Shown: piece after piece, positions 936 to 63,570 of the stretch
How positions within the stretch are numbered: position 1 is the stretch's first letter
Layout: each line of letters begins with the position of its first letter
NCBI RefSeq assembly: GCF_006345805.1
Contig: NC_043008.1
Span: 9,672,001 to 9,736,000, forward strand
DNA length: 64,000 bases
Reading direction: 5' to 3'
Origin: Octopus sinensis
Lineage: Eukaryota
Notes under the pieces: generated by a model
What the model saw: only the letters and a program-made list of their open reading frames with translations
The model's database searches: none
Told to the model about the DNA's origin: nothing
Translations under genes and position numbers: made by a program

Positions 936-1741
936 TGTTTCTTTATTAGCCACACAGGGCTGCACACAGATAGAACAAATTACAAGGTAGAGCTTTTCTT
1001 TTGAAGGTTTAAAAAAAAAAAAAAAAAGGAAGGGGAGTTTCGATCAAAAGGGATCGTAAAAGGAGAGAAAGAGGACAAAAAAAAAGGGGGGTTAAAAAAA
1101 AAGGGGGAGAGGAAAAAATGATCAATAGGGATCGTTATCACAGAAATGTCAATATGAAGTGTAAAGGGGAGGACAGGTGAGGTTTACCCGTGGAAAGAAA
1201 AGCCTACGGAAAAGACCACGGTAGCCTCGGTCAATGAAGTCACATTTTATATTTCTTTTTTTTTTTTTTTTTTTTGCAAATAAGCAACTCTCTGTTTTCG
1301 ATTTCTGGGTTCATAGGACTATGCTCAAGGTGGCTTCGTCATTCATACGTGCCATTCTTGCTACATTCACCCATCTTTTTTTAAAACATTCGCTAGACAA
1401 AACTTGCCTCTCTACTCTCACTTTCCTTTTCAAGTGGTACTTGAAGAAGTTGATGAGAGATTGACCAGAGAGGAAAGTGTTTGTCTCCAATCCTTTCAGA
1501 CGCGTCCACCAGATACATTCTTTCGCCATAGCCACAAGGATGATGAAAATAGCTCTTCCTTCCCGTTTGAAGGAAGGAGGCGTGACAATATTGACGATAG
1601 ACTCAGCTGATAAACCGACTCGTCCCACACGTGACAGCAGTTGTTCGACATAAGCCCACAGGTCGGAAATTGTTGGACACTGAACGAGTGCGTGCAGAAC
1701 GGTTTCGTCGCTCTGACCGCATCTCGGGCAGGTCGGCCCCG
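936..1741 (-). mobile_element. 5'-truncated L1/Tx1-like non-LTR retrotransposon (ORF2 C-terminal zinc-binding region plus 3' UTR) inside (GATA)n
   Basis: Frame 1740->1311 reads GPTCPRCGQSDETVLHALVQCPTISDLW... (CxxC...H...C, zf-RVT-like) and ends at a stop at 1311. The 3' UTR ends ...ggctAATAAAgaaaca. (GATA)n lies on both sides. Confidence 0.85.
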
Positions 1742-1815
<74 letters not shown>

Positions 1816-2355
1816 TACATATATACAATCACGTAGGACTGCACATTCAAATATACATGTGCATACATACACACACACGTGATACATATATGTGTGTGTG
1901 TGCGTATGTCTGTGGGTGGGCGTGCGTATGTGTGTGGGTGCGTGCGCGCTTTTGTGTATGTGTGTATGTGTGTTACTGGCAAGCAGGTAAAAAGGAAAAT
2001 AATTCAGGATAAGCGAAAATAAACTTCATTAAACCGCATAAAACATGCATGGTAGTGTTGCAAAATGTAGCAGACCACGTAAAATGGTGCAGTGAGGGGG
2101 AAAAATTGTAATTAAAAATGTTTGCATACTCTAAATTGCGAAAGAAACTAAAAATACACAAGGAAGCGAAGAAAGTAACAGAAAGCTCTGTAGATTTGCG
2201 GAACAGCTCGCTATATTTGCCTGAAGAATAGAAATTAGACGGTGAAATACTTACAAAGAGTGGCCGCCAGTTGAAAGCCTACTGTTGGCCGTAGAAGGAA
2301 AGAATCTCCGGAAAGTTAGGAGTAATTTGTCTTGTTGTTTTTGGTAATCAAAACC

Positions 2356-2727: not shown

Positions 2728-3544
2728 ACAATGTGTCTTGTAGTAAAGTTTAAATAGACATATTAGTGAAACAGAATGGATTAAAGAGGTGCAAATATGA
2801 AGACGAAATGAGGGAGGAAATGTACAGCAGCTTCTAGCGAACCAGTTAGGTTTTAAAAGATACACGTAATACCCTAGTGCTCACCTAAGATGACAAGGCG
2901 TCCAAACGTTTCTGCCACCTCGCCACCCCTGTGAGTGTAAAATATATTATGGCAATCTTTGCATGAAGCGTGATGAGGCTTGCTGTTGTCAAAGGCTCGA
3001 TATATCAAAGAGCTACGGATATACTTGATGAAACTGAGAGCTACTCCTTTCAAATGAGGTTCAGATTGCCGACATGGAAACAGAATACTTCTCGAAAGGA
3101 ATTTCTCTTAATAATTCAAACAGTTATCATTACTAAATAGAAGGATTCTGATTTCGAAGACCTGTCTCTTTGGCAACTTATGCAATGAAAGTCTAGTAAA
3201 ATGCTCTCAGATTTCAGTAAAAAATACTTAATATTGCATTTACAATTGTTTTAGTGATCGGAGATACAATAGCTGCCTAGAAGTGAAACGATTATCACTA
3301 AATATTTCATCTGCAAAGCTTTATCGACTTTTAGAGGCTGATTACGAAACTAATCACCTACAATTAATATAGGTTGGTTGTCTCGTGAATTGGTTGTCAA
3401 CCTGCCGACATTATTTTTTCGCTTTACCTACTAATTATCATGTAATTATCATGTAATTTACCATCTAATTATCATGTCACAAAACTCCTCCTACACCCAA
3501 AAGACTACCCTAATCCTAACCCCAAAGACACGAATCCAAGCAGG

Positions 3545-3592
3545 TGGCGGTCTGATGAAGGAGAGAACACTGAAACTGCGAAGTCACTATCA
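3545..3592 (+). ncRNA. Type-I hammerhead ribozyme motif with canonical core
   Basis: tggcggt-CTGATGA(3552-3558)-ag..ct-GAAA(3572-3575)-ct-GCGA-ag-TC-actatca. GUC cleavage triplet; GNRA loop on helix III; helix II is weak. Confidence 0.65.
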
Positions 3593-3703
3593 ACTCTTCC
3601 CTTGTGAAAATGTAAGAAACGTACTCTACTAAGAAATATGGAATAGTCATCGGTTTCATGTTAAATTCTTTTTTACATAGCTTAACATAAACGGAAGCAT
3701 TAA

Positions 3704-3734
<31 letters not shown>

Positions 3735-3899
3735 GTGTGTAGTTTTAGAAAACTACATAGGCAAAGGGAAGAAGCTCAGAGAATGAAGGAAATTGAGCAG
3801 GGAAATTATGTAGCAATGAAATCGTGATTTGGTTTCGTTGCACTAATGAGCTCAGCGAAAGGAGAATCGGTCGACACCTGAGGGAAAAATGTAAAAGAG

Positions 3900-4432
3900 C
3901 AAGCGAAAGAAGAAGAAGAAGAAGAAGAAGAAGAAGAAGAAGAAGAAGAAGAAGAAGAAGAAAAGAAGAGGGGGAGAGGAGAAGAAGAAGAAGAAGAAGA
4001 AGAAGAAAAGAATAGGGGGAGGGGAGGAGAAGGAGAAGAAGAAGAAAAGATGAGGGGGGGGGGAGGAGAAGAAGAGAAGAAGAAGAAGAAGAAGAAGAAG
4101 AGGGGGAGGAGGAGGAGGAGGAGAAGGAGAAGAAGAAGAAGAAGAAGAAGAAGAAGATGAAGAAAAGAAGAGGGGGAGGAGAAGAAGAAGAAGAAGAAGA
4201 AAAGAAGAGGGGGAGGAGGAGGAGAAGAAGAAGAAGAAGAAGAAAGAAGAGAGGGAGGAGGAGGAGAAGAAGAAGAAGAAGAAGAAGATGAAGAAAAGAA
4301 GAGGGGAGGAGAAGAAGAGAAGAAGAAGAAGAAAAGAAGAGGGGGAGGAGAAGAAGAAGAAGAAGAAGAAGAAGAAGAAGAAGAAAAGAAGAGGGGAGGA
4401 GGAGGAGGAGAAGGAAAGAAGAAGAAGAAGAT
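3900..4432. repeat. (GAA)n/(GGA)n polypurine compound repeat
   Basis: Direct reading; almost purely purine on the + strand. Confidence 0.95.
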
Positions 4433-4764
4433 TGGAATACAGAGAAAGATGGTGGTGCAAACAAAGACGAAAAATGTGAGTTAATAATGTTTTACGACAA
4501 GATTAGAAGCATGTTTAATGAGTTGTAATCAAGGAAGCAAATGAATGGACAAGAAGAAGAAGAAGAAGAAGAAGAAGAAACGAAAAGGAAAAGGAGAAAG
4601 AAGAAAAACGAGTGAAAAAGACGGAAGGAAAAAACGGAGACTGAATCCAGAAGTACAAAGTAAAGAGAGAAAAGGAAGATGGGAGGGAGGAGATGGAGAG
4701 AGGAAGGGGGAGAGAGGGAGAGAATGTGATGGTAATAATAGGATATTACAACAGCTGATACATG

Positions 4765-4886
4765 GATGCATATACATATACATACATACATACATACATA
4801 TACTCACACACATACATACATATACATACATATGCATATATTCATATACATACATACATACATATACATACATACATACATATACA

Positions 4887-4918
<32 letters not shown>

Positions 4919-4924
4919 CATACA

Positions 4925-4956
<32 letters not shown>

Positions 4957-5280
4957 CATACATACATACATACAAACATACATACATATACATACATACA
5001 TATACATACATACATATACATACATACATATACATACATACATGCATACATACATACATACACACACACACATACATACATATACATACATATACATACA
5101 TATATACATATACATACATACATATGCATAGATACATATACATACATACATATACATACATACATGCATGCATACATACATACATACACATACATACATA
5201 CATACATGCATGCATACATACATACATACATACATACATACATACATACATACATACATACATACATAGCAGAATATACA
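4765..5280. repeat. (CATA)n/(CATATA)n microsatellite
   Basis: Direct reading; explains the overlapping HTYI/MYVC ORFs. Confidence 0.95.
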
Positions 5281-5828
5281 TACATATGTACGTATGTACG
5301 TAGATAAAACGCATGTTACAAATACAGTCTGGAAGCAGAACAGTAAAAATAAACAAGTTTTTTCTAAAGTTCGTTAACTTGTTTCATTGCTCTTCTTCTA
5401 AGACTAGACAACTCTGATCAAGCAGATCTATGTTCAAAATACATTTCAGCCTTGACCATCAAATTTTTTTTCTTCAGATTCAGTCTAATATTACTTACCC
5501 AGTGAAACCTTTTGTTTAGTACGGTAGCATATGATTTGGGAGAAATTTAGCTGATATTTCTGACATATCTGAACTGCTTGCAGCGCAACTATGTGCGAAT
5601 CTCTTCGGACACAATCTGTGAATTTTGGTTTTCTGTGGAATGTGGTAGACTATACTTTAGGAGTTGGCTTGAATCAACTATTTATGTTTCTGATGGGCCA
5701 TGAATAAAGCACGTGTGATACCATGAATAGTTAGCATAAACTTCAAACTGTTAATATAATAAAAATAAATATATATATATTATATATGTATTATGTATGT
5801 ATAGGCGCAGAAGTGGCTATGTGGTATA

Positions 5829-5995
5829 GGCGCAGGAGTGGCTGTGTGGTAAGTAGCTTGCTTACCACATGGTTCTGGGTTCAGTCCTACTGCGTGGCAC
5901 CTTGGGCAAGTGTCTTCTACGATAGCCTCGGGCCGACCAAAGCCTTGTCAGTGGATTTGGTAGACGGAAACTGAAAGAAGCTCGTCGTATATATG

Positions 5996-6030
<35 letters not shown>

Positions 6031-6240
6031 TTGTGTGTCTGTGTTTGTCTCCCCAACATCGCTTGACAACCGATGCTGGTGTGTTTATGTCCCCGTAACT
6101 TAGCGGTTCGGCAAAAGAGACCGATAGAATAAGTACTAGGTTAACAAAGAATAAGTCCTGGGGTCGATTTGCTCGACTAAAGGCGGTGCTCCAGCATGGC
6201 CGCAGTCAACTGACTGAAACAAGTAAAAGAGCGTAAAAGA
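5829..6240 (+). mobile_element. tRNA-derived SINE, family A (full length)
   Basis: Head ggcgcaggagtggctgtgtggtaag...gggttcagtcc; internal (GT)n; tail ...tgactgaaacaagtaaaaga. The first ~25 bp are duplicated at 5804-5828. Confidence 0.9.
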
Positions 6241-6312
6241 TATACGGGTAAGTGAATCACGTAGAAGCCATAGTCAAGGTGATACATCTCTGGCCAACAT
6301 ACTTATCCGTCG

Positions 6313-6560
6313 GGATCTTTTCTGTTGCTGTCACTGATTTTGAAATTTTAAAATTAAGTGAAAATTTTAAAATTTGGTATATTGAGTAATTTTTCACGCT
6401 GAATCTGATGTTGTTATTCACTTGTTGCTTTAAGTAGACAACAGCTTGACTTGTTACCATGGAAACTGGTATCAATGTGTCTGTAACTTTCGATCGGCTA
6501 AAATTACCTAAAATTTACAAATCTTACAAGCTGTTAATTTTTTTTAGTTATTAATTTATA
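6313..6560 (+). mobile_element. Left part of a GGATCTTTTC-ended MITE (relative of 57096-58250)
   Basis: Begins ggatcttttctgttgctgtcac. Internal sequence matches 57120-57185 and 58005-58095. Right end not found. Confidence 0.7.
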
Positions 6561-7523
6561 GTAAAAAAAAAAAAAACAAATGTAATTTCCATAATTAGTA
6601 TACAAAGCTATAACCCCGAAAGGGTGAAAGGCAAAGTGAACCTCGGCGGAATTTGAACTCAGAACGTAACGGCAGACGAAATAAACAAAGAAATAAACAA
6701 ACAAGCAAAAAAGTTAAATAAAACCATTACGTGTATTTATTATTGGCATAACGACTCTCCCAAGATACAACAAAACATGTTCAACACACGAGTTCCCATC
6801 AAGAATCTTGCAAACCAAATACAGAAAGAAAAAAATGGTATTATTATTTTAAAGGTGTTGGTGAGGCGGAACTTCGAAGTAAACACTAGACTGTTTTTAG
6901 TTCATTCTCTGTACATCTTATGCGAAGTTATTGTACCGGATGGCTTCGTTTTTACCCACTGCTCTCGCATAGTCGACCAGCGAAGTACCAGTCATATGCT
7001 TGGGTCAGTTCAGGTAATGACAGCTTTTGCTAACAATTTGTAGCCTTGTAGCAACTATTACCAGATATCGTATTGATGTCTTTTGATCAGCGACACGTCT
7101 AAGATTTAAAATATTGAAAAGATTTCTTGTTTTGTCTTCCGAGAGATTAACAGTAAAATCGGTGTCAGCAGAATTTGATCTGAGCAGAAATAAAGGGATG
7201 CATTCATACTGGCTTCTCTTCCTCACATCGTTGACCGGGGAGGATATCGACCGAACAAAGAGAATATCTGCGCAAGACTTGTACTTTTATTTCATCAGAT
7301 CTCGGAGCAATGAAACAACAATGAAAACCAAGTGTGTTATTATACGGTTGTATATATCTTATGTGTGTTTAAGTCATTATAATAGAATGTAGCCTCGTAG
7401 AACACTTCACATCTAACATTCAGAACAATAGTATATTTTAGTAGTATTTATGCTCCGTTTCGTAATTTACTTTCCTCTTCAAAATCTCGCATTCATCTGT
7501 TAACAGTATTTATCATTAGCAGA

Positions 7524-8103
7524 CGGCGAGCTGGCAGAATCGTTAGCACGCCGGGCGAAATGCTAACATTCTGAGTTCGTTGCGTTCTGAGTTCAAATTC
7601 CGCCGGGGTCGATTTTGCCTGTCATCCTTTCCGGGTCGATAAGTTAAGTACCAGTTATGCACTGGGGTCGATATAATCGACTTAATCCGTTTGTCTGTCC
7701 TTGTTAGTCCTCTCTGTGTTTAGCCCCTTGTGGGTAGTAAAGAAATAGGTATTTCGTCTGCTGTTACGTTCTGAGATCCAATTCCGCCGATGTCGGCTTT
7801 GCCTTTCATCCTTACGGAGTCGATTAAATAAGTACCAGTTACGCACTGGGGTCGATATAATCGACTTAATCCGTTTGTCTGTCCTTGTTTGTCCTCTCTA
7901 TGCTTAACCCCTTGTGGGTAGTAAAGAAATAGGTATTTCGTCTGTCTTTACGTTCTGAGTTCAAATTCCGCCGACGTCGACTTTGCCTTTCATACTTTCG
8001 GTTTCGGGGTCGATAATTTAAGGACCAGTTGCGTACCGGGGTCGATCTAATAGACTAGCGGCCCTCCCCCAAAATTTCGGGCCTTGTGCCTAGAATATAA
8101 AAG
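7524..8103 (+). mobile_element. SINE family B, tandem array of ~3 units
   Basis: Head ggcgagctggcagaatcgttagc; repeated gagttcaaattccgccg...gtcgat units. Two units end in ...agccccttgtgggtagtaaagaaata; the last ends in ...gggccttgtgcctagaa. Confidence 0.9.
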
Positions 8104-8695
8104 TATTTATCACTGTTTAAAATTCCATTGAACTAAATCTTATATAAACATAGTCATTAGTAATTAATTTGCACTTGTTAATTTTGTTTTCGTTTTGCTT
8201 TTCTCTCTTTGTTCGAAATAAGCCGCTATCTTCATTCTCTACTCTCCCCATCTTCTCTATTTACTTTTAATTGCTATGGAATGGTGCTGCTATTGTTATG
8301 TCACTGAATTCTTGATAATTTACACCTCTTTGAACTTGCTGTAGTTGAAATCGTGACATCAATAATGGCTGGAGAAGCGAATATGGATTCAGCAGAGCAA
8401 TTTAATAAAATGCGCGTTAATTATGTAGTTCTGGTAATGTTTGCAGTCAGTTAAATGTTTAATGGTGGACAGATTGCTGTACCAGGGACAGAATGCAAAC
8501 CATTTAGAAATATACGAGTGGTCCTTATGGACGGATACTTATTTACACATGCACACACACAATATGTGAATGTGTATATGTCTGTGTGGGAGTGTGTGTG
8601 CGTGTATGTGCGTACATATGTGTGTGTGTATGTTTGTGTGTGTTAAACAGAATATGTTAGCTATGCTGCTATTACTGCAATATTCCAGTGACGGT

Positions 8696-12027: not shown

Positions 12028-12457
12028 AAAGAAATAATTGAGATTCTGTTGAAGCACCAAATCAGTGCGGTATTATCTGTACAATTCAAAGTAAGATGAA
12101 TAAAATCAAAATAAGCAACAGGATATCAAGAAGTGATGCAGTACGACCGTTTCAAGCGGCTCCATTTAATTGAACAATCCAATTATTACTTCAATTTAAA
12201 TGCATGATTTATCCTCAGCTACATAAATAAATAAATAGAATTCTTAATCAGTCGGACACATTAATATAATTTTACTCAAATGCTCTATTTGAGGAAGAAG
12301 ACGGAAAGAGTCCATGTTGCCGCTAATGTAGCTAAGAATTATGCAGCTGAGGATAGCCCTATATTTAAATTGATGTAATGATTGCAATGTTCAATTAAAT
12401 GGAGCCGCTTAAAACGGTCCTACTGCATCACCTCTTGATATCCTGCTGCTCATTTTA

Positions 12458-13454: not shown

Positions 13455-14361
13455 TGTATGTATGTATGTATATATATATATACAAACACAATAACAGAAA
13501 GAGTATAAGAGAGGAGAGAGAGAAAGAGATACAGACATTGATAGATAATGTGTATATATTCCAGGCTTACATATGCGTGTGTATGTATGTGTGTGTGTTA
13601 GTCTGTTCGTGTGAATATGTATCAGTGTGTCAGGTGATGAAGTGGCGCAGTCGTTAGCACGCCGGTTAAAATGTTTTGCTGCATTTCGTCCGTCTTGACA
13701 CTTTAAGTTCAAATTACGCCGAGTTAGAGTTTTGCCTTTCATCCCTTCAGGGTCCATAAAATAAGTACCAGTTGAGCACTGATATTGATGTAAGCGACTT
13801 ACCCACTTTTCCGAAACGGCTGACCTTGTACCAAAATTTGAAACATACATATTACCGTAATGCACCCTCGTGCATTGACTACGTTGATGAACCCCTGAAA
13901 TGGCCACAGGCGACTGTAAATATGGTTTATTTTGCTTGGACATCGGCTTTCTTAAAATGTTTCCCTTTATCTTAAAAAGTAACATTTAATCGTAAAAAAT
14001 TCTTAATCGATGAACTTTTATCTATACCTTACGTATTTATATGTTTCGTATATATACATATTTTTATATTTTTATATATTTATTATTCTAAGTTTTATAT
14101 TGTAAATTTTTTTTAGACGCTGAAGTATAAAATTTTTTTATATTTGCGATAGACTGTACTGACATTTTTTTATGTTTGTCTAAATGAAATATTGTTACAT
14201 CTTCTGTGATTTTCTGCATCTGTATTCTATGTATAAGAAAAAACATTATCTTTCTTTATGTGTGATTAAATCTTCGAGATGTGATATGTTAGGTGGATGA
14301 CCTTAAATTTGTTGTTTGTTCTACTACCAAAGTTTGTTATATATATATATATATATATATA

Positions 14362-14569
14362 TTGGTAAAAACGGTAAGATAACAAAAGAAAGAAAGAGAC
14401 CTCAATATTATGAAAATAGAGGAAATTTATCTATAAAATAATATGTTACATTACTCAATAGTCAAGATAAAACTCTGAGTTTCAGATGCCGAAGAGATGG
14501 TGTTGTGGATTTCCACTTCGGCATATGAAACTCAGAGTTTTATCTTGACTATTGAGTAATGTAACATAT

Positions 14570-14609
<40 letters not shown>

Positions 14610-14799
14610 GTAAATGTAATATGTGACAATTATTTGGTAGACATGATAAAACTCCGAGTTTCGGATGCCGAGGTGGAAATCCACGCTGCCATCTCTTCAG
14701 TACCGAATAATTGTCGCATATTACATTTACAGAATAAACTCCTCTATTTACATAATATCGAGGTCTTTTCTTTCTTTTGTCATGTTACCGTTTTTATCA

Positions 14800-14800
<1 letters not shown>
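14362..14800. mobile_element. Nested fold-back Penelope-like element with hammerhead motif
   Basis: Outer arms 14362-14440 and 14715-14800 plus inner hairpins. Minus strand 14700->14646 reads CTGAAGA-gatg..gtggatttccac..catcc-GAAA-ctcggag-tt. Confidence 0.7.
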
Positions 14801-14851
<51 letters not shown>

Positions 14852-16829: not shown

Positions 16830-17151
16830 GGATCTTTTCTTTTTGAAGGCCAGATTTCAACACAATTTCTAGTTAACTAAACACTTTTAAACTTCGTATA
16901 CTGGTAGAATGTGTTTATAAAACATCATTTTTTCTTGGCTTTATTGAGAAAATTTTATATCTTATAACATATTTCCACTTTAAAATCGAGCATTTTCGCA
17001 ATTTTAACCAATCGATTACCTCCATTTAGGTAAACAACATAAGAGAAAAAAAAATGTTTTATTTTGACACATTCTACCAGTATACGAAGATTTAAAGTAT
17101 TTAGTTAACTAGAAATTGTGTTGAAATCTGGCCTTCAAAAGGAAAAGATCC
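16830..17151. mobile_element. MITE with ~85-bp TIRs and 8-bp TSD
   Basis: GGATCTTTTC...GAAAAGATCC ends; TSD ggatggat at 16822-16829 and 17152-17159. Confidence 0.9.
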
Positions 17152-28486: not shown

Positions 28487-29047
28487 ATTGTTTATTTGAA
28501 GGGAACAATACATATATTTAAGTGCTACTAATAGTTTCATATGTTGAGAAATACTCAGACATATTCTTCGCAAACCACATATCGTAACGAACTAAAAAAA
28601 AAATTGAATAATAGAAGAAACGCGAAAAAATGAAAAGGCATCTTATAGAAAACGCAGAAAGTAAAAAAAAACGGAAAACGAAAAATCGAAGAACGCAGAT
28701 ACAAAAACTAAAATGTAAAAAATGAAAAAGTAAAAAGGTAAACGATCTATCCTCCTTAGACCGTAAATGATAAGGTTGGAAAGATATCAAGTTAGTCAGG
28801 AATAGACGGAATTTTCCAATTCTTCAAAATATATTGATACATATGGTTGCAACCGTTGCGTTTTGTATATGCTGCCTTCTTTTTTTCTTTCTTATCTTTT
28901 TAAGTGTTTCTTCTATTATTCAAATTTTTTTAGCTTGTTCTGAGATGCGTGGTTTGGTCCTGAAGAATATGTTTCAGTATTTCTCAACTTATGAAACTAT
29001 AAGTTGCGTTTAGATACATTTATTGTGCCCTTTAAGTAAATAAATAT
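28487..29047. mobile_element. Fold-back Penelope-like element with hammerhead motif
   Basis: Arms ~28487-28621 and ~28907-29047. Plus arm reads CTGAAGA(28960)-atatgtt...aacttat-GAAA(28993)-ctataag-tt. Confidence 0.7.
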
Positions 29048-29099: not shown

Positions 29100-29331
29100 G
29101 GTATGTAGAAAAATACAACATGGACAAGAACGTATAACTCTTAGAAGACGATACAATAAACACGGACAGGACATTCGAAACCCTCAGTCTTCAGTCAAGA
29201 TCATCGTAGTAATTTCGGCTGATTAATCTTGAGATTACTAGATCACGGCCAGCCCTCAAGAAAAACTAAGCAACGAGCATTAGAAAAACTAAGCTGGGAG
29301 CGTATATATATATATATTATATATATATATA

Positions 29332-29632
29332 TAACTTATAAATAAGGACAAACGAAAAAAATTTCTAATGCCAAATATGCCGAAAATTGGACATATTGTC
29401 CATTTACCATATAATTTTTTCCCAGTACGCACGCTACTCCGAAAAAGGTCGACAGAAGTCTCAAAAAAATCCATTATTACCATATTTTTTAGAAATTTTT
29501 TTAAAGATTTCTGTCGACCTATATTCGAGTAGCGTGCGTGCTGAAAAAAATTATATGGTAAATGGACAATATGTCCAATTTTCGGCATATTTGGCATTAG
29601 AAATTTTTTCGTTTGCCCTTATCTATAAGTTG
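29332..29632. mobile_element. Fold-back element with ~130-bp inverted arms next to (TA)n
   Basis: aacttataaataaggacaaacgaaaaaatttctaatgcc...gtcgacagaa and its reverse complement. Confidence 0.8.
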
Positions 29633-30399
29633 TTTATAATTTAACCTTTAAAGGTATTTTTTTAATATGCTGGCCATTGATAACATTTTTTTTTCGAAAA
29701 AATTCTATCCTACATTAGATATATATATATATATCCGTAAGCGTTTTCTATGTATATATGTATGCATGTATTACGTATGTATGTGTGTGTATGAGTGTAT
29801 GTGTGTGTGCCCGCGTGCGCAGCGTGTGTATAAATGCACACATATCTTTCCAGAAGGTTTTCTTTCACGATTGCCCTGATTTGCTCGAAACCCTAAATTT
29901 ATTTCGTATAAGATCATATTAATACCTATATCCATTGCTTCTATATCTCATCTGATGTATGTCGATGTATTTTTCAACAAAATTCTTGATATAACAATTA
30001 TTTGCTTGAGTCTGTAGTAGACTTTTCCTGCTTCAAATATGGATATAATAAAATTAGTAAATGATTAAAGCTGATGTAATGTGTTGCGAAGGGATAACAT
30101 AGGAATGAGATTGAGTTCGTTTTCTTATCTACTTCAAGCAATTCAAAGCACAAGATCTGTTTATCAGTTGAACAGATTAGTTTCCTCATAAGAAAAATGC
30201 ATCTCTTTCTTAATCAAACTTATATCAACAAGTAACATGATGCCGCTTACGTACCAACACACATTCACAAAGATATGTAGACGCCAGGTCGATAAATACG
30301 TCATATGTCGAATATATATGCACGCATACTTACATATCTATGTAAAGAGAATGAGAAAGAGAGAGCAATACCTACAGAGAGACTGACAGACAGACAGGC

Positions 30400-36854: not shown

Positions 36855-37836
36855 GGTTTAAAATTTTGGCGCAAAGTCAGCAATTTTGGGGAGAGAAGTG
36901 GTAGGGGGGATAAATCGATTACAACAACCCAGTGCTCAATTGGTACTTATTTTATCGATCACGAAGGATGAAAGGCAAAGTCGACCTCGGCGAAATTTGA
37001 ATTCAGAACGTAAAGACGGACGAAATGCTGCTCAGCATTTTGTCCGGCGCGGTAACAATTCTTTTCCACTATAGGCACAAGGCCTGCAATTTGAGGGAGG
37101 GGATAGTCGATTTCATCGACCCCAGTGCGTAACTGGTACTTTTTTCATTGACTCCGAAAGGATGAAAGGCAACTAAAGGCAGCTCGGTCCGGGAACCAAA
37201 CTCCCTACTTTATGATTATGAGCCCGACGCTCTAACCACTGTGCCACGCACCATCACTAACGTAAATATTGGAAAGTACAAACAACAGAAGTAAAATGTT
37301 TCGAACTTTTCGACTTCATCGCATTCATATCACGGTCGAAATCTTCTCGTTTTAACTTACTTCCTTTCTAGAGATCAATCAGCTAACGATAGTAATACAC
37401 AGGGAAAACAATCTAGTCATATTTTACCTATTTCTTTATTACCCACAAGGGGCTAAACACAGAGGAGACAAACAAGGACAGATAAACGGATGAAGTCGAT
37501 TAGATCGACCCCCGTGCGTAACTGGTACTTATTTAATCTACCCCGAAAAGATGAAAGGCAAAGTCGACCTCGGCGGAATTTGAACTCAGAACGTAACGGC
37601 AGACGAAATACCTATTTCTTTACTACCCACAAGGGGCTAAACACAGAGAGGACAAACAAGAATATACACACTGATTAAGACGATTATATCGGCCCCAGTG
37701 CGTAACTGGTACTTATTCAATCGACTCCGAAAGGATGAAAGGCAAAGTCGACCTCGGCGGAATTTGAACTCAGAACGTAACGGCAGACGAAATACGGCCA
37801 CGCATTTCGCCCGGCGTGCTAATGATTCTACCAGCC
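36855..37836 (-). mobile_element. Cluster of SINE family B copies (36855-37170 and tandem 37428-37836)
   Basis: Repeated gaaaggcaaagtcgacctcggcggaatttgaactcagaacgtaa. Confidence 0.85.
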
Positions 37837-39455: not shown

Positions 39456-40260
39456 CAGTAGTTTTATTTTTATAGCGTGCTTTCACTTTACTACCGAGCG
39501 CAGCTCTGTGTGCCTTAGGTATGTGCTGTGGTTTGCTGTGATGCTCTTATGGTTACTGAATTGAAAGTGTTTTGCATAGGATGTGTGCAGTGCCTAGTAG
39601 TGCAATTTTCTGTATGTTATATATCTTCTTGTTATGTATTTGAATATTTTTTATCATACCTAATGTTTCTGTTTTTAGATTCCACATTCGAGTTAGCTCC
39701 ATTTCCAGGTCTTTGTATTTTGAAAGTTTCTCCATTTAAAGAAACGTTGTTGTCTGCTGGTATTGATACATCAGTTAGAAAGCATTTTTTCTTCATGATC
39801 TCTGACAACTATATCTGGTCTATTAGCCTTAATTTCTCTGTCTGTCTGTATTAGCATATCCCAGAGTATGGCTGCTTTCTCGTTTTCTGTAACCTTTTCT
39901 GGCATGTGCCTATACCATCTTTTTTCTGTTGTTATTCCATAGTGTTGGCATAGCTTCCAGTGTATGTAGGCCCCCACTCTGTCGTGTCTGTGAATATATT
40001 CCTTCTTAGCCTCTGGGCAGGAAGAGATAATATGATTTATTGTTTCTTGTCCATCACATATTCTGCAGTTACTTGTTATGTTTCTCTTCATTATACGTTT
40101 TTGGTAATTTCTGGTGGGGAGTCTTTGGTCTTGTGCTGCAATAAAAAATTCTTCAGTCTCTGCTTTGAGTCCTGAGCTCCTCAACCATTGCTGGGATTTT
40201 TCTCTGTCTATTTCTTTTGCATTTAGTTTAGCCCAGTATTTGCCATGAAGGGGCTTTTCT
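39456..40260 (-). mobile_element. 5'-truncated R4/Dong-like non-LTR retrotransposon (CCHC finger + RLE endonuclease + 3' UTR) abutting (TAA)n
   Basis: KPLHGKY...LKAETE..IAAQDQ..TRNY...CRIC..ETINHIISSCP...RHDRV...ILWD..IQTDREIKANRPDIVV...EKLSKYKDL; frameshifted. The 3' end joins (TAA)n at 39391-39455. Confidence 0.9.
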
Positions 40261-40261
40261 A

Positions 40262-40464
40262 GCGTTGGTCTAATAGGGAAAAGCAGGAAAGTCCAAAGGG
40301 AAGGAGGACGAAGCAAGAAATAAATCGCCAATAGTCCACATGCTGTTACATTCTTGAAGTGCTTCTTCTTTCTTCCCTTTGGAATTTCCTGTTTTTCCTG
40401 TTTCCGAAGAAGAGCTATGCTCGAAACGTAAATTAACTACTCTTTTCCTTCTCCGAGCGTCCAA
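40262..40464 (+). mobile_element. Penelope-like short element with hammerhead-like motif
   Basis: tt-CCGAAGA(40404)-agagc-tat-gctc-GAAA-cg-TA-aa; followed by ...gagcgtcca as in the 13108 copy. Confidence 0.6.
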
Positions 40465-47945: not shown

Positions 47946-48450
47946 TATGTATGGACATTATTTACATTATTTATATTTGGCGTATATTTGTCCTCATCTT
48001 GTTTGTTGTTAACACAACGCTTCGGTTGATATACCCTCCAGCCTTCATCAGGTGTCTTGGGGAAATTTCGAACCTGGGTTCTCATTCCTGAGGTACTTTT
48101 TGATGTTGTTGTTGTTGTTGTTATTATTATTATTATTGTTATTATTATTATTATCATTATTATTTAGGTCCCTGCCTGGAATCGAACTCGGAATCTTAGG
48201 GTTAGTAGCCCGCGCTCTTAACCTCTACGCCATAGGCGAGTTCGATTCCAGGCAGTGACCTGAATAATAATTATAACAGCATCGAAAAATACCTTAGGAA
48301 TGAGAACCCAGGTTCGAAATTTCCCCAAGGCACCTGATGAAGGCTGGAGAGTATATCAGCCGAAACGTTGTGTTAACAACAAACAGGATGAAGGCAAATG
48401 TAAATAATGTAAATAATGTACATAATTCCTCATCTCTTAAATATAAAATT
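47946..48450. mobile_element. Head-to-head inverted pair: tRNA-like Pol III head + (AAT)n linker + hammerhead ribozyme
   Basis: Minus arm: A box tggcgtagagg (48222-48232), B box gagttcgattcc (48178-48189), (aat/aac)n, then CTGATGA...GAAG. Plus arm starts at the B box (48237) and carries an intact motif. Confidence 0.8.
48329..48374 (+). ncRNA. Minimal type-I hammerhead ribozyme motif, canonical core
   Basis: ggcac-CTGATGA(48334)-aggctgg-agagtata-tcagcc-GAAA(48362)-cg-TT-gtgtt; palindromic helix III ACGT. Confidence 0.8.
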
Positions 48451-52621: not shown

Positions 52622-52664
<43 letters not shown>

Positions 52665-52671
52665 CGGAGAT

Positions 52672-53008
52672 ATACTTGTATAGCAAGTAAGTTGATCTGA
52701 GATCGTGTGCTGAAAGAAAAACAATTGCAGCGTGGAAGATATTTGTAAGCCATTTAAGCACACGCAAAAACCGTAAGTTTCACTTCAACATTTAAATTTA
52801 ATTTGTGTCAAAATATTTTCGTCGCTTTGAAACCGCGACCTGTTCATTCAGAAAACTTCATGCTGCACGAAGTTTTATCAGTGAACAAGTCGCGGTTACA
52901 AAGCAACGAAAATATATTGACACAAATTAAATTTAAATGGTGAAGTGAAACTAACGTTTTTTGTGTGTTCTTAAATGGCTTACAAATATCTTCCACGCTT
53001 CAATTGTA
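52672..53008. mobile_element. Fold-back element in (TA)n with hammerhead-architecture motif (G3-C8 core)
   Basis: ~130-bp inverted arms centred near 52862. Plus arm: atca-GTGAACA(52881)-agtcgc..gcaac-GAAA. Minus arm: ATGAACA-ggtcgc..gcgac-GAAA-atat-TT-tgac. Confidence 0.7.
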
Positions 53009-53022
53009 CGTATGTATGTATG

Positions 53023-53098
<76 letters not shown>

Positions 53099-53102
<4 letters not shown>

Positions 53103-53877
53103 GCAATAAAAATGGTAAATAATTTTCCTGTGGTTTTTCATGTAACCAACAATTATTTACCGGTAAATTTCGGTATGTAAATACGACAAATTAATTGTCA
53201 GGACCTTTGTAAGGTTCAGTATATAGTAAAGAAAATAAGTTGGCTAGCAGCAAGCTGTTTTGCCTCATACCGAAGGAATTAGAAATGGCAGTCAAAGACC
53301 GTTTTTTCCATTTCTATAAGTGGAGATTCCAAAAACGAAGGCCCTTGCGGCTCACATACACAAAATCGGAGTGGCAAATATACGAAGGTAGTCACTTACC
53401 GTTAATAGCGAACACCGTGTTTCTGGATCACAAACATATAAAAAAGGGAGTTTGAATTCCGTCATCAGCGCTATATTCGATAGCTTTATCAAATGCCACC
53501 AGCCCTCACTTCTGACCCAGCGACATCAGATAGTGGGGGGAAGTGCGCAGATGTTAAAACCAAGTAACGACTGGGAACGTAAATTTTCCCTCAAAAATTC
53601 TGCCACGCGCGCCTTCTGGGTAATCGTAATGGAATGAGGAATCCACATGGTAATGCAATAAAAATGGTAAATAATTTTCCTGTGGTTTTTCATGTAACCA
53701 ACAATTATTTACCGGTAAATTTCGGTATGTAAATACGACAAATTAATTGTCAGGACATAGAAATGGAAAAAACGGTCTTTGACTGCCATTTCTAATTCCT
53801 TCGGTATGAGGCAAAACAGCTTGCTGCTAGCCAACTTATTTTCTTTACTATATACTGAACCGTACAAAGGTCCTGAC
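53099..53877. mobile_element. Penelope-like partial tandem plus inverted arrangement next to (TA)n
   Basis: Direct repeat 53099-53203 / 53652-53756; 53757-53877 is the inverted copy of ~53198-53317. Confidence 0.75.
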
Positions 53878-54667
53878 TTAATTTATCGACCCCGAAAGGA
53901 TGAAAAGCAAAGTCGACCTCGACGGAATTTGAACTCAGAACGTAACGGCAGACGAAATACGGCTACGCATTTCGCCCAGCATGCTAACGTTTCTGCCAGC
54001 TCACCGCCATCAGAAGTGCATATATATTGGAGATATCTCAATAGTTGTGATTTTGTATTATTTTTAAACAATAATTTTATATGTGACACATAAACATATC
54101 ATTATCCAAATTGTTAGTTTTATCACCATGGTAAGACAATACGAAGTGTAATTATAAAGCCGGTGGTTGTAGGTACTTGTATTTACTGACTTGAGATATC
54201 TGGTAGTGATTAAGATAATGTTACATAGAATATTTCACATCGGTCAAATTAGCGAGCCAAGAGCTGCCGCTCCAATTGTTCGAGCGTCGAGGGAGGCAGG
54301 GATGAAATCCGTCGTTCCGTGTAGTTCCATAGTAGTAACTTTCCTTAGTCAATCTGTTTATTTCAGGACAATTGTGCTTATACAGAAGTTGTAGAACAAG
54401 TCATTAATTTAACTGACAGATTCTATTGATTGAGTTTAATTGGAACAGGAATACCTCACTTCAGGTTGTTATTTATATTGCTTTCCCTCTAAGAGGTGTA
54501 GCAGATATGTAACGTTGCAGTTTCATCTCGGGTTTCACGTATTAACTATCCAGATAGGTAGATTTCAATTTAGTGCTTATTAATTAAACACACATTCTCG
54601 CATTCAATGCAAGGACAATTAGTCACTTAGAATTAATAGCTTTTTCCAAGAACCAAATATAAATACC

Positions 54668-63030: not shown

Positions 63031-63400
63031 AGAAAAACAAAAGACGAAGAACGTTGTACGAACAACAAACAAGTATATTAGTTTGATGCTCAGGAAAAAA
63101 TGAAAAGTCTTTTATGTTTCGAGCCTACGCTCTTCAACAGAAAGGAATTAGAGAAAATAAACAGAGAGAGAATGAAAAAATTTGTTGTGTTCAGCGGTCC
63201 GACATCGCGAATTTTAGATCGCTAGCCACTACACATTCTTTATTTTCTCTCCTTGTTTCTTTCTGTGTTCATTTCTGTGGAAGAGCGTAGGCTCGAAACG
63301 TTAAAGACATTTTCACTTCCCGAACATTATACTAATACATCAGTTTGTTGTCTACACCTCCAGTCTTCGTCTTTTGTTTTCTTTTTTGTGAATTCTCCCT
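63031..63400. mobile_element. Fold-back Penelope-like element with hammerhead-like motif in both arms
   Basis: Plus arm: ttt-CTGTGGA(63275)-agagc-gtag-gctc-GAAA-cg-TT-aaa. Minus arm: CTGTTGA-agagcgtaggctc-GAAA-cata. Confidence 0.65.
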
Positions 63401-63410
63401 ATATATATAT

Positions 63411-63570
63411 TATTTACATTTTTTACATTATTTACATTTGACGGATATTTGTCCTCATCTTGTTTTTTTACTAACACAACGTTTCGGCTGATATACCCTC
63501 CAGCCTTCATCAGATATCTTGGGGGAAATTTCGAAACTGGGTTCTCATTCCTAAGGTATTTTTCGATATT
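63411..63570 (-). mobile_element. Third, 5'-truncated copy of the 47946-48450 hammerhead family
   Basis: Minus strand reads gatat-CTGATGA-aggctgg-agggtata-tcagcc-GAAA-cg-TT-gtgtt (63474-63518). Confidence 0.8.

What the first reader, a model, noticed from the sequence alone, without database searches (positions are those of the whole stretch)
52672..53008. Hammerhead-architecture motif with a swapped G3-C8 core pair
Seen: combining the two arms gives (g)tca-GTGAACA-ggtcgc-ggtttcaaa-gcgac-GAAA-atat-TT-tgac. All three helices and the palindromic helix III (AATATT) are present, but the core is GUGAACA rather than CUGANGA. Established: C3 and G8 form a tertiary Watson-Crick pair, and compensatory G3-C8 variants retain activity. 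Inference: a natural covariant family that CUGANGA-based searches would miss, suggesting past selection for catalysis. Each arm also carries private mutations, so the local copies may be inactive.
Basis: partly seen in the sequence, partly recalled or inferred. Interest (0 to 1): 0.72.

Follow-up and report, generated by a model that had tools for sequence, protein, structure and literature searches.

The report
Swapped-core hammerhead in abundant Penelope-like repeat
A very abundant repeat in this animal genome, likely the end piece of a Penelope-like jumping gene, carries a small hammerhead-shaped RNA motif whose two paired core letters are swapped (G3-C8 instead of C3-G8) in most copies, which suggests the pair was kept by selection, although cutting is untested and both local copies are likely dead.

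Summary
52721-53007 is a 143-nt inverted repeat between (TA)n tracts; each arm carries a minimal type I hammerhead fold pointing outward. Contigs of four public runs (four organism labels, four studies; 3,450-8,455 laid each) show a high-copy family whose majority letter at core position 3 is G (86-95% of depth), with C8 unchanged. Five of six pair-breaking letters of the two local arms are replaced by the pair-restoring letter in most laid depth (one of them at 47% in one run). Variable inversion points, a one-sided tail and the (TA)n target fit a PLE 3' end; the RT gene was not found. Natural U3-A8 is published, also in PLEs; engineered G3-C8 partly rescues a PLE hammerhead; I found no published natural G3-C8, but 2 of 63 phage pattern hits are clean G3-C8 hammerheads. 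Two-sided helix covariation and cleavage were not shown; helix III is weak. Verdict: new variant of a known kind, a useful natural test of whether PLE ribozymes are under selection. Interest 0.5.

The parts
52633..52662 (.). (TA)n tract, likely insertion target, left
   Evidence: TRF
52663..52720 (-). 3' 'tail' of the unit, present only on the left copy (49-58 nt); part of the repeat family
   Evidence: outside the inverted repeat but deeply covered by family contigs from about 52675, some to 52663 (tables 2, 8)
52721..52863 (-). left arm: 5'-truncated 3'-end copy of the element
52800..52857 (-). left hammerhead fold: helix I 52857-52848 / 52810-52800, core 52847-52841 (local A3, family G3), extra base 52840, helix II 52839-52835 / 52825-52821, GAAA 52820-52817, palindromic helix III 52817-52812, U17 52811
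   Evidence: family letters
52861..52867 (.). inversion point, a 7-nt quasi-palindrome centred on 52864; fold-back priming site (inferred)
   Evidence: sequence
52865..53007 (+). right arm: inverted copy without tail, ending 119 nt after the start of helix II
52871..52928 (+). right hammerhead fold: core GUGAACA 52881-52887, extra base 52888, helix II 52889-52893 / 52903-52907, GAAA 52908-52911, position 16.1 at 52916 (local A, family U), U17 52917
   Evidence: family letters
52663..52753 (-). ATG-started open frame of about 30 codons through arm and tail; possibly the start of the parent element's ORF (unverified)
   Evidence: no credible protein relative
53011..53100 (.). (TATG)n/(TA)n tract, likely insertion target, right
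   Evidence: TRF

Best explanation
This is an inverted pair of truncated copies of a high-copy repeat, likely the 3' end (pseudo-LTR) of a Penelope-like retroelement, and its family-majority sequence has a minimal type I hammerhead fold with the 3-8 core pair swapped to G3-C8, which would likely still self-cleave slowly as a dimer or with protein help, while the two local copies are predicted to be inactive. Shown: the inverted repeat, the (TA)n flanks, the one-sided tail, thousands of related contigs in four runs, G3 as majority letter, and the minimal-hammerhead hallmarks. Inferred: target-primed reverse transcription into (TA)n, started internally about 120 and 170 nt past the ribozyme, then fold-back at a short quasi-palindrome to give the inverted arm; cleavage after U17 (52811/52917) in the parent RNA; origin of G3-C8 by two substitutions through a mismatched intermediate, kept because the Watson-Crick 3-8 pair positions the 2'-OH of nucleotide 8; U17 rather than C17 would avoid a G3-C17 trap. 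At this locus a read-through RNA would fold into a 143-bp hairpin that buries the motif.
For: G3 at 86-95% of depth in 4 of 4 runs laid; of the six pair-breaking local letters, four are replaced by the pair-restoring letter at 70-98% in all runs, one at 47-81%, one at only 9-37%. Shuffle test 0-1 of 20,000. Hallmarks listed in PMC4209133 (base between 9 and 10.1, G10.1-C11.1, palindromic 15.2-16.2) are met. Two frequent family variants in helix I keep pairing by inspection: a 2-nt deletion (30-40% of depth) gives 7 contiguous pairs, and a change at 52806 (11-14%) gives U-G. Two random changes among 11-13 core positions would hit the 3-8 pair and restore Watson-Crick pairing with p about 0.004-0.006 (post hoc). 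Inverted 5'-truncated copy, one-sided 30-40-bp tail and (TA)n bias are PLE traits (PMC8557442). Arm end 119 nt after helix II start matches RT starts 111-118 nt after stem II in the anole PLE (PMC11167929). Other inverted pairs in the window carry canonical hammerheads of the same build. C3G/G8C partly rescues a PLE hammerhead (PMC11167929).
Against: No RT or GIY-YIG ORF was linked. No cleavage data. No two-sided helix covariation could be read from laid contigs. Helix III is all A-U: self-duplex -0.2 kcal/mol against -3.5 for the canonical family in this window. The inserted base is mostly G, where the published consensus has H. Monomer folds of the local arms are not unusual (z -0.9 to +1.0). 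Cleavage was dispensable for insertion in vitro (PMC11167929), and another motif pair in the window carries an uncompensated U at position 6, so core changes may be tolerated. Contigs had to be 80% alike, so a diverged canonical sister family would be missed; 37 variant rows were hidden.
Confidence: 0.7

Rival explanations
1. Catalytically dead relic: the motif descends from a PLE hammerhead, but G3-C8 was fixed by founder effect in a master copy that spread without needing to cleave; the fold may serve only as a protein-binding or RT-positioning structure.
For: Cleavage mutants insert normally in vitro (PMC11167929); Naiads reach huge copy numbers without canonical hammerheads (PMC8557442); weak helix III; an uncompensated U6 core in another inverted pair of this window.
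Against: The only two core changes hit the one Watson-Crick pair and restore it (p about 0.005); all other core positions and helices are intact in the family majority.
Confidence: 0.22
2. Same ribozyme, but the carrier is a short non-autonomous PLE derivative (retrozyme- or SINE-like, about 200 nt) and not the end of a coding element. Compatible with the best explanation as to the ribozyme.
For: Contigs continue heterogeneously just upstream of 52867 (61 contigs, agreement 0.45, run X3); no ORF relative found; animal retrozymes are proposed to derive from PLE pLTRs (10.64898/2026.07.22.740005, part 1).
Against: No head-to-tail tandem here; heavy 5' truncation gives the same picture for coding PLEs; open frame in arm and tail; minimal rather than canonical type I build.
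Confidence: 0.3
3. A MITE-like palindromic DNA element in which the hammerhead shape is chance.
For: At this locus it looks like a near-perfect 287-nt foldback; Rfam finds no hammerhead.
Against: No listed contig spans the palindrome, depth near the centre falls to about 1% of peak, joints show many different inversion and truncation points; one-sided tail; shuffle test 0-1 of 20,000; three hallmarks met.
Confidence: 0.03

Closest known systems
Minimal hammerheads (min-HHR) of metazoan Penelope-like elements (Cervera and de la Pena 2014, PMC4209133)
   Same: Type I order, extra base between 9 and 10.1, G10.1-C11.1, palindromic helix III, short proximal helix I, mostly in truncated copies, pairs on opposite strands 100-700 bp apart.
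   Different: Core is GUGAACA (G3-C8), not CUGANGA; the inserted base is mostly G; helix II 5 bp; helix I likely extends to about 10 bp.
U3-A8 covariant hammerheads (S. mansoni Cercyon PLEs, about 1,300 motifs, PMC4209133; several examples in PMC3088659)
   Same: Natural compensatory change of the same 3-8 pair, in the same class of element.
   Different: G-C reversal and not U-A; roughly 10^4 copies by a crude depth ratio.
Engineered C3G/G8C hammerheads (anole Poseidon PAc, PMC11167929; review PMC8495972)
   Same: Identical core swap; partial rescue of cleavage; similar distance from ribozyme to insertion end; tail.
   Different: Here natural and the family majority; activity untested.
Phage G3-C8 hammerheads (L008, L028; earlier scan notes)
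   Same: Same swapped core in a complete three-helix fold.
   Different: Closed, stable helix III, no extra base after A9, phage context; an independent origin is likely.
Octopus Naiad elements (PMC8557442 supplement)
   Same: (TA)n target, inverted 5'-truncated copies, tail.
   Different: Lack canonical hammerheads; the 3' end of Naiad_Obim and all of Naiad_Ovul and Naiad_Omin, read by eye, do not resemble this unit, and motif searches of the file gave no match.

Membership tests
PLE minimal hammerhead (type I) | Core box CUGANGA with C3-G8 | tested here: not met
   Family majority is GUGAACA; the pair is kept as G3-C8
PLE minimal hammerhead (type I) | Watson-Crick pair between positions 3 and 8; U4, G5, A6, A9 | tested here: met
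   Right arm directly; family majority for left arm
PLE minimal hammerhead (type I) | G12 A13 A14 A15.1, U16.1, H17 | tested here: met
   Left arm directly (U16.1, U17); right arm A16.1 is U in 70-92% of depth
PLE minimal hammerhead (type I) | Unpaired base between 9 and 10.1; G10.1-C11.1 | tested here: met
   52840/52888 and pair II.1; base is mostly G, published consensus H
PLE minimal hammerhead (type I) | Palindromic 15.2-16.2 region for dimer helix III | tested here: met
   6-nt A/U palindrome 52817-52812, but self-duplex only -0.2 kcal/mol
PLE minimal hammerhead (type I) | Helices I and II with compensatory changes across copies | tested here: inconclusive
   Majority letters pair; a deletion and a one-sided change keep pairing; no two-sided change readable; no full copies retrieved
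PLE minimal hammerhead (type I) | Self-cleavage after H17 as dimer or with protein | not testable with these tools
   Needs an in vitro assay
Penelope-like element | pLTR copies as partial tandem or inverted 5'-truncated pair, with tail at one end | tested here: met
   definition from PMC8557442
Penelope-like element | AT-rich or (TA)n insertion target | tested here: met
Penelope-like element | ORF with telomerase-like RT and GIY-YIG endonuclease | tested here: inconclusive
   None at the locus (10 of 46 long frames scanned); N-terminal frame has no credible relative; truncated copies would lack it
Non-LTR retrozyme | Head-to-tail tandem units each with a type I hammerhead | tested here: not met
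   No tandem at this locus; other loci not testable
MITE / foldback DNA element | Fixed terminal inverted repeats shared by all copies | tested here: not met
   Variable inversion points, no listed spanning contig, one-sided tail

The most novel reading that the evidence does not exclude
A PLE family of tens of thousands of copies, shared by several related animal species, spread with a catalytically active hammerhead whose 3-8 pair is reversed: the first natural G3-C8 hammerhead family in an animal and in-genome evidence that PLE ribozyme cleavage is under selection, against in vitro data that it is dispensable. It would also mean that some PLE clades called 'hammerhead-less' were missed by CUGANGA descriptors.
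Probability: 0.4. Interest if true: 0.68.

Novelty: new variant of a known kind. Interest (0 to 1): 0.5.

Why it matters
Whether the hammerheads of Penelope-like elements do anything is open: they cleave poorly in vitro, and cleavage-dead mutants still insert. A compensated swap has to pass through a mismatched state that is dead in vitro. Finding it as the majority form of a very large family points to selection on the active-site geometry, and gives a ready test set (family majority, canonical revertant, two mismatches, thousands of decaying copies). In practice, ribozyme descriptors and Rfam models need G3-C8 added, since a whole high-copy family is invisible to them. It is not a new ribozyme class, and 3-8 covariation is already known as U3-A8.

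Tried and rejected
No genome is held, so no genome-wide alignment. No third copy in the window. Two metagenome scans found 0 copies. Rfam: 0 at gathering over the window; 24 weak matches at E<=10 around the locus, none a hammerhead, mostly hairpin or microsatellite look-alikes. 4 of 24 listed runs were laid; the best holder may be the source sample. Search for the parent ORF: 117 candidates, none at E<=10; 1 hit at E 2e-4 among 1.84 billion, rejected as a repeat-inflated Gar1/Naf1-domain protein. Pfam on 10 of 46 long frames: 2 weak zf-RVT hits elsewhere, no PLE domain. Octopus Naiad consensus sequences and two cephalopod repeat papers' supplements held no match to short motifs (line breaks can hide matches); a 17-nt Naiad motif is absent from the window. 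Phage pattern counts alone were uninformative (63 swapped, 33 and 66 mismatched); only the three-helix filter separated them (2 of 63, 1 of 33, 0 of 66), too few for a rate; the canonical pattern was not run. MFE folding of local arms did not give the hammerhead fold. Pair counting on the two-row alignment was dropped; pairs were checked per arm. Considered and rejected: a shifted core reading of the left arm (CUGAAUGA), because those letters are private to this copy.

Full report
Setting. The window is about 35% G+C, rich in microsatellites, with no Rfam match at gathering score and no clear gene. It is animal repeat DNA. I take it for an octopus-like cephalopod from recalled resemblance of its 184-bp repeat; no call confirms this (one search was blank). 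No genome is held.

Observation. 52721-52863 and 52865-53007 form a 143-nt inverted repeat, 90% complementary, centred on 52864, between (TA)n tracts at 52633-52662 and 53011-53100. The left copy has a further 49-58 nt with no partner on the right. Each arm holds, pointing outward, helix I 5' strand, a 7-nt core, one extra base, a 5-bp helix II with a 9-nt loop, GAAA, a 6-nt A/U palindrome, U17 and helix I 3' strand. The right arm has G3-C8 but breaks helix I pair 4, helix II pair 3 and A15.1-U16.1. The left arm has A3-C8 and breaks helix I pairs 2 and 4. Neither is likely to cleave, and a transcript across both would form a -177.6 kcal/mol hairpin.

Family. Twenty of 24 listed runs, from 12 studies, hold part of the stretch. 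I laid four (four organism labels, four studies) at 80% likeness: 8,455, 3,450, 7,238 and 5,122 contigs. Peak summed depth divided by the depth of long single-locus pieces gives 23,000-54,000; the tool warns this is no copy number, so I read it only as order 10^4. At 52847 the majority letter gives G3 in 94.7, 93.2, 92.8 and 86.0% of depth. The other local defects behave alike: 52849 93-98%, 52851 90-96%, 52916 70-92%, 52877 47-81% towards the pairing letter. 52905 reaches only 9-37%; contigs with the pairing letter probably sort to the left arm, which has it (inference). No change is listed at C8. Frequent variants fall in loop II (52829, 52831) or keep helix I paired by inspection (2-nt deletion, 30-40%; U-A to U-G, 11-14%). 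No two-sided compensatory change could be read from these tables, so helix covariation is open.

Chance. A descriptor accepting any Watson-Crick 3-8 pair matched 1 of 20,000 shuffles of the unit when loose and 0 when strict. If two of 11-13 core positions changed at random, they would hit the 3-8 pair and restore pairing with p 0.004-0.006 (post hoc).

What carries it. PLE insertions are 5'-truncated, often with an inverted truncated copy and a 30-40-bp tail at one end, and some clades target (TA)n (PMC8557442, passages). In the anole PLE the ORF starts at stem II and reverse transcription starts 111-118 nt further on, the tail lying between two start sites (PMC11167929, passages). Here the tail-less arm ends 119 nt after the start of helix II and the tail ends at 168 nt or a little further. 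Joints show many different inversion and truncation points and no listed contig spans the palindrome, which argues against a MITE. The window holds other inverted pairs with hammerheads of the same build and canonical core (48334 +; also a copy at 63513 -; 14700 -). An ATG-started frame runs through arm and tail but found no credible relative, and no RT was linked, so coding PLE versus non-autonomous derivative is unsettled.

Mechanism. Shown steps: structure, family majority, context. Inferred steps: insertion by PLE machinery; fold-back at the quasi-palindrome 52861-52867; slow cleavage after U17 in tandem RNA by dimer formation or protein help, as for other minimal hammerheads (PMC4209133; PMC11167929). 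A G3-C8 variant was noted to be more active with G17 than C17 (PMC3884650, passage, data not shown there); the family's U17 would avoid a G3-C17 trap (inference). Against activity: helix III self-duplex is -0.2 kcal/mol versus -3.5 for the canonical family; rescue by the double mutant is partial; cleavage was not needed for insertion in vitro; a motif pair at 63034-63380 has an uncompensated U6 in both arms. I put the chance that the family-majority RNA cleaves above mismatch controls at about 0.6.

Known versus new. Three hallmarks named in PMC4209133 are met; the defining CUGANGA box is not, so this works like a PLE minimal hammerhead and is a core variant of it. Natural U3-A8 is published (PMC3088659 section 8; PMC4209133). 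Searches for hammerhead with G3-C8, C3G plus G8C, GUGANCA, G3C8, GUGAUCA and GUGAACA returned only engineered cases. The library lacks most subscription papers, and Lunse et al. 2016 on PLE hammerhead variants was not held, nor was one supplementary file of PMC4209133; either may already show G3-C8. Earlier scan notes report G3-C8 in phages. I tested this in part: 2 of 63 swapped-pattern phage hits pass a three-helix filter (L008, L028), against 1 of 33 and 0 of 66 for mismatched patterns. So the swap occurs elsewhere in nature; what is special here is its fixation in a very large animal repeat family.

Papers seen. PMC3088659: outline, sections 8-9. PMC4209133: parts 1-2 of 4, supplement search. 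PMC8557442: passages, two supplement searches, part 24 of 59 of the supplement. PMC11167929, PMC8495972, PMC6765202, PMC3884650, PMC6155905: passages. PMC13282606: passages and supplement search. PMC8967140: supplement search only. 10.64898/2026.07.22.740005: part 1 of 5. Lunse et al. 2016: title in a reference list only. Hammerhead numbering and the role of the 2'-OH at position 8 are from established knowledge and PMC8495972.

Verdict. Observation confirmed, interpretation partly supported, new variant of a known kind, interest 0.5.

Noticed in passing
window 48334 (+, in inverted pair 47957-48426) and 63513 (-): Two copies of a canonical-core (CUGAUGA) minimal hammerhead with the extra base after A9 and a palindromic helix III; a second PLE-type family.
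   Followed up: partly
window 63034-63380 (motif at 63275 +, and its inverted partner near 63140 -): Inverted pair whose hammerhead-like motif has U at core position 6 in both arms; a similar motif with C at position 4 lies at 40404 (+). Possibly another core-variant family.
   Followed up: partly
window 14338-14824 (core at 14700, - strand): Nested inverted copies between (TA)n tracts with a canonical CUGAAGA core, long bulged helix II and a quasi-palindromic helix III.
   Followed up: partly
window 12108-12456, 16830-17151, 28488-29043, 29326-29638: Further inverted-repeat insertions, some beside (TA)n, with no hammerhead found by the relaxed scan.
   Followed up: no
window 53101-53888: Young complex duplication next to the finding: about 105-nt direct repeats (53101-53205 and 53652-53757) and a 134-nt inverted copy at 97% identity; element unidentified.
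   Followed up: no
L008 and L028 (IMG/VR contigs 3300032397_001285 and 3300019776_000919): Phage hammerheads with a complete three-helix fold and a G3-C8 core; L095 has a G3-G8 mismatch in an otherwise complete fold.
   Followed up: partly
family contigs over window 52806-52819: A minor set of contigs (4-7 per run in X1, X2) changes A13 to G together with the 2-nt deletion; one contig shows G3 with G8 (tables 5c, 7). Possibly dead offshoots.
   Followed up: no
window 1314-2003 and 39774-40436 (-): Weak zf-RVT Pfam matches, below cut-off, probably LINE remnants.
   Followed up: no
window 7579-8056, 37425-37795 and many more: Very abundant 184-bp SINE-like repeat, in tandem at two places.
   Followed up: no
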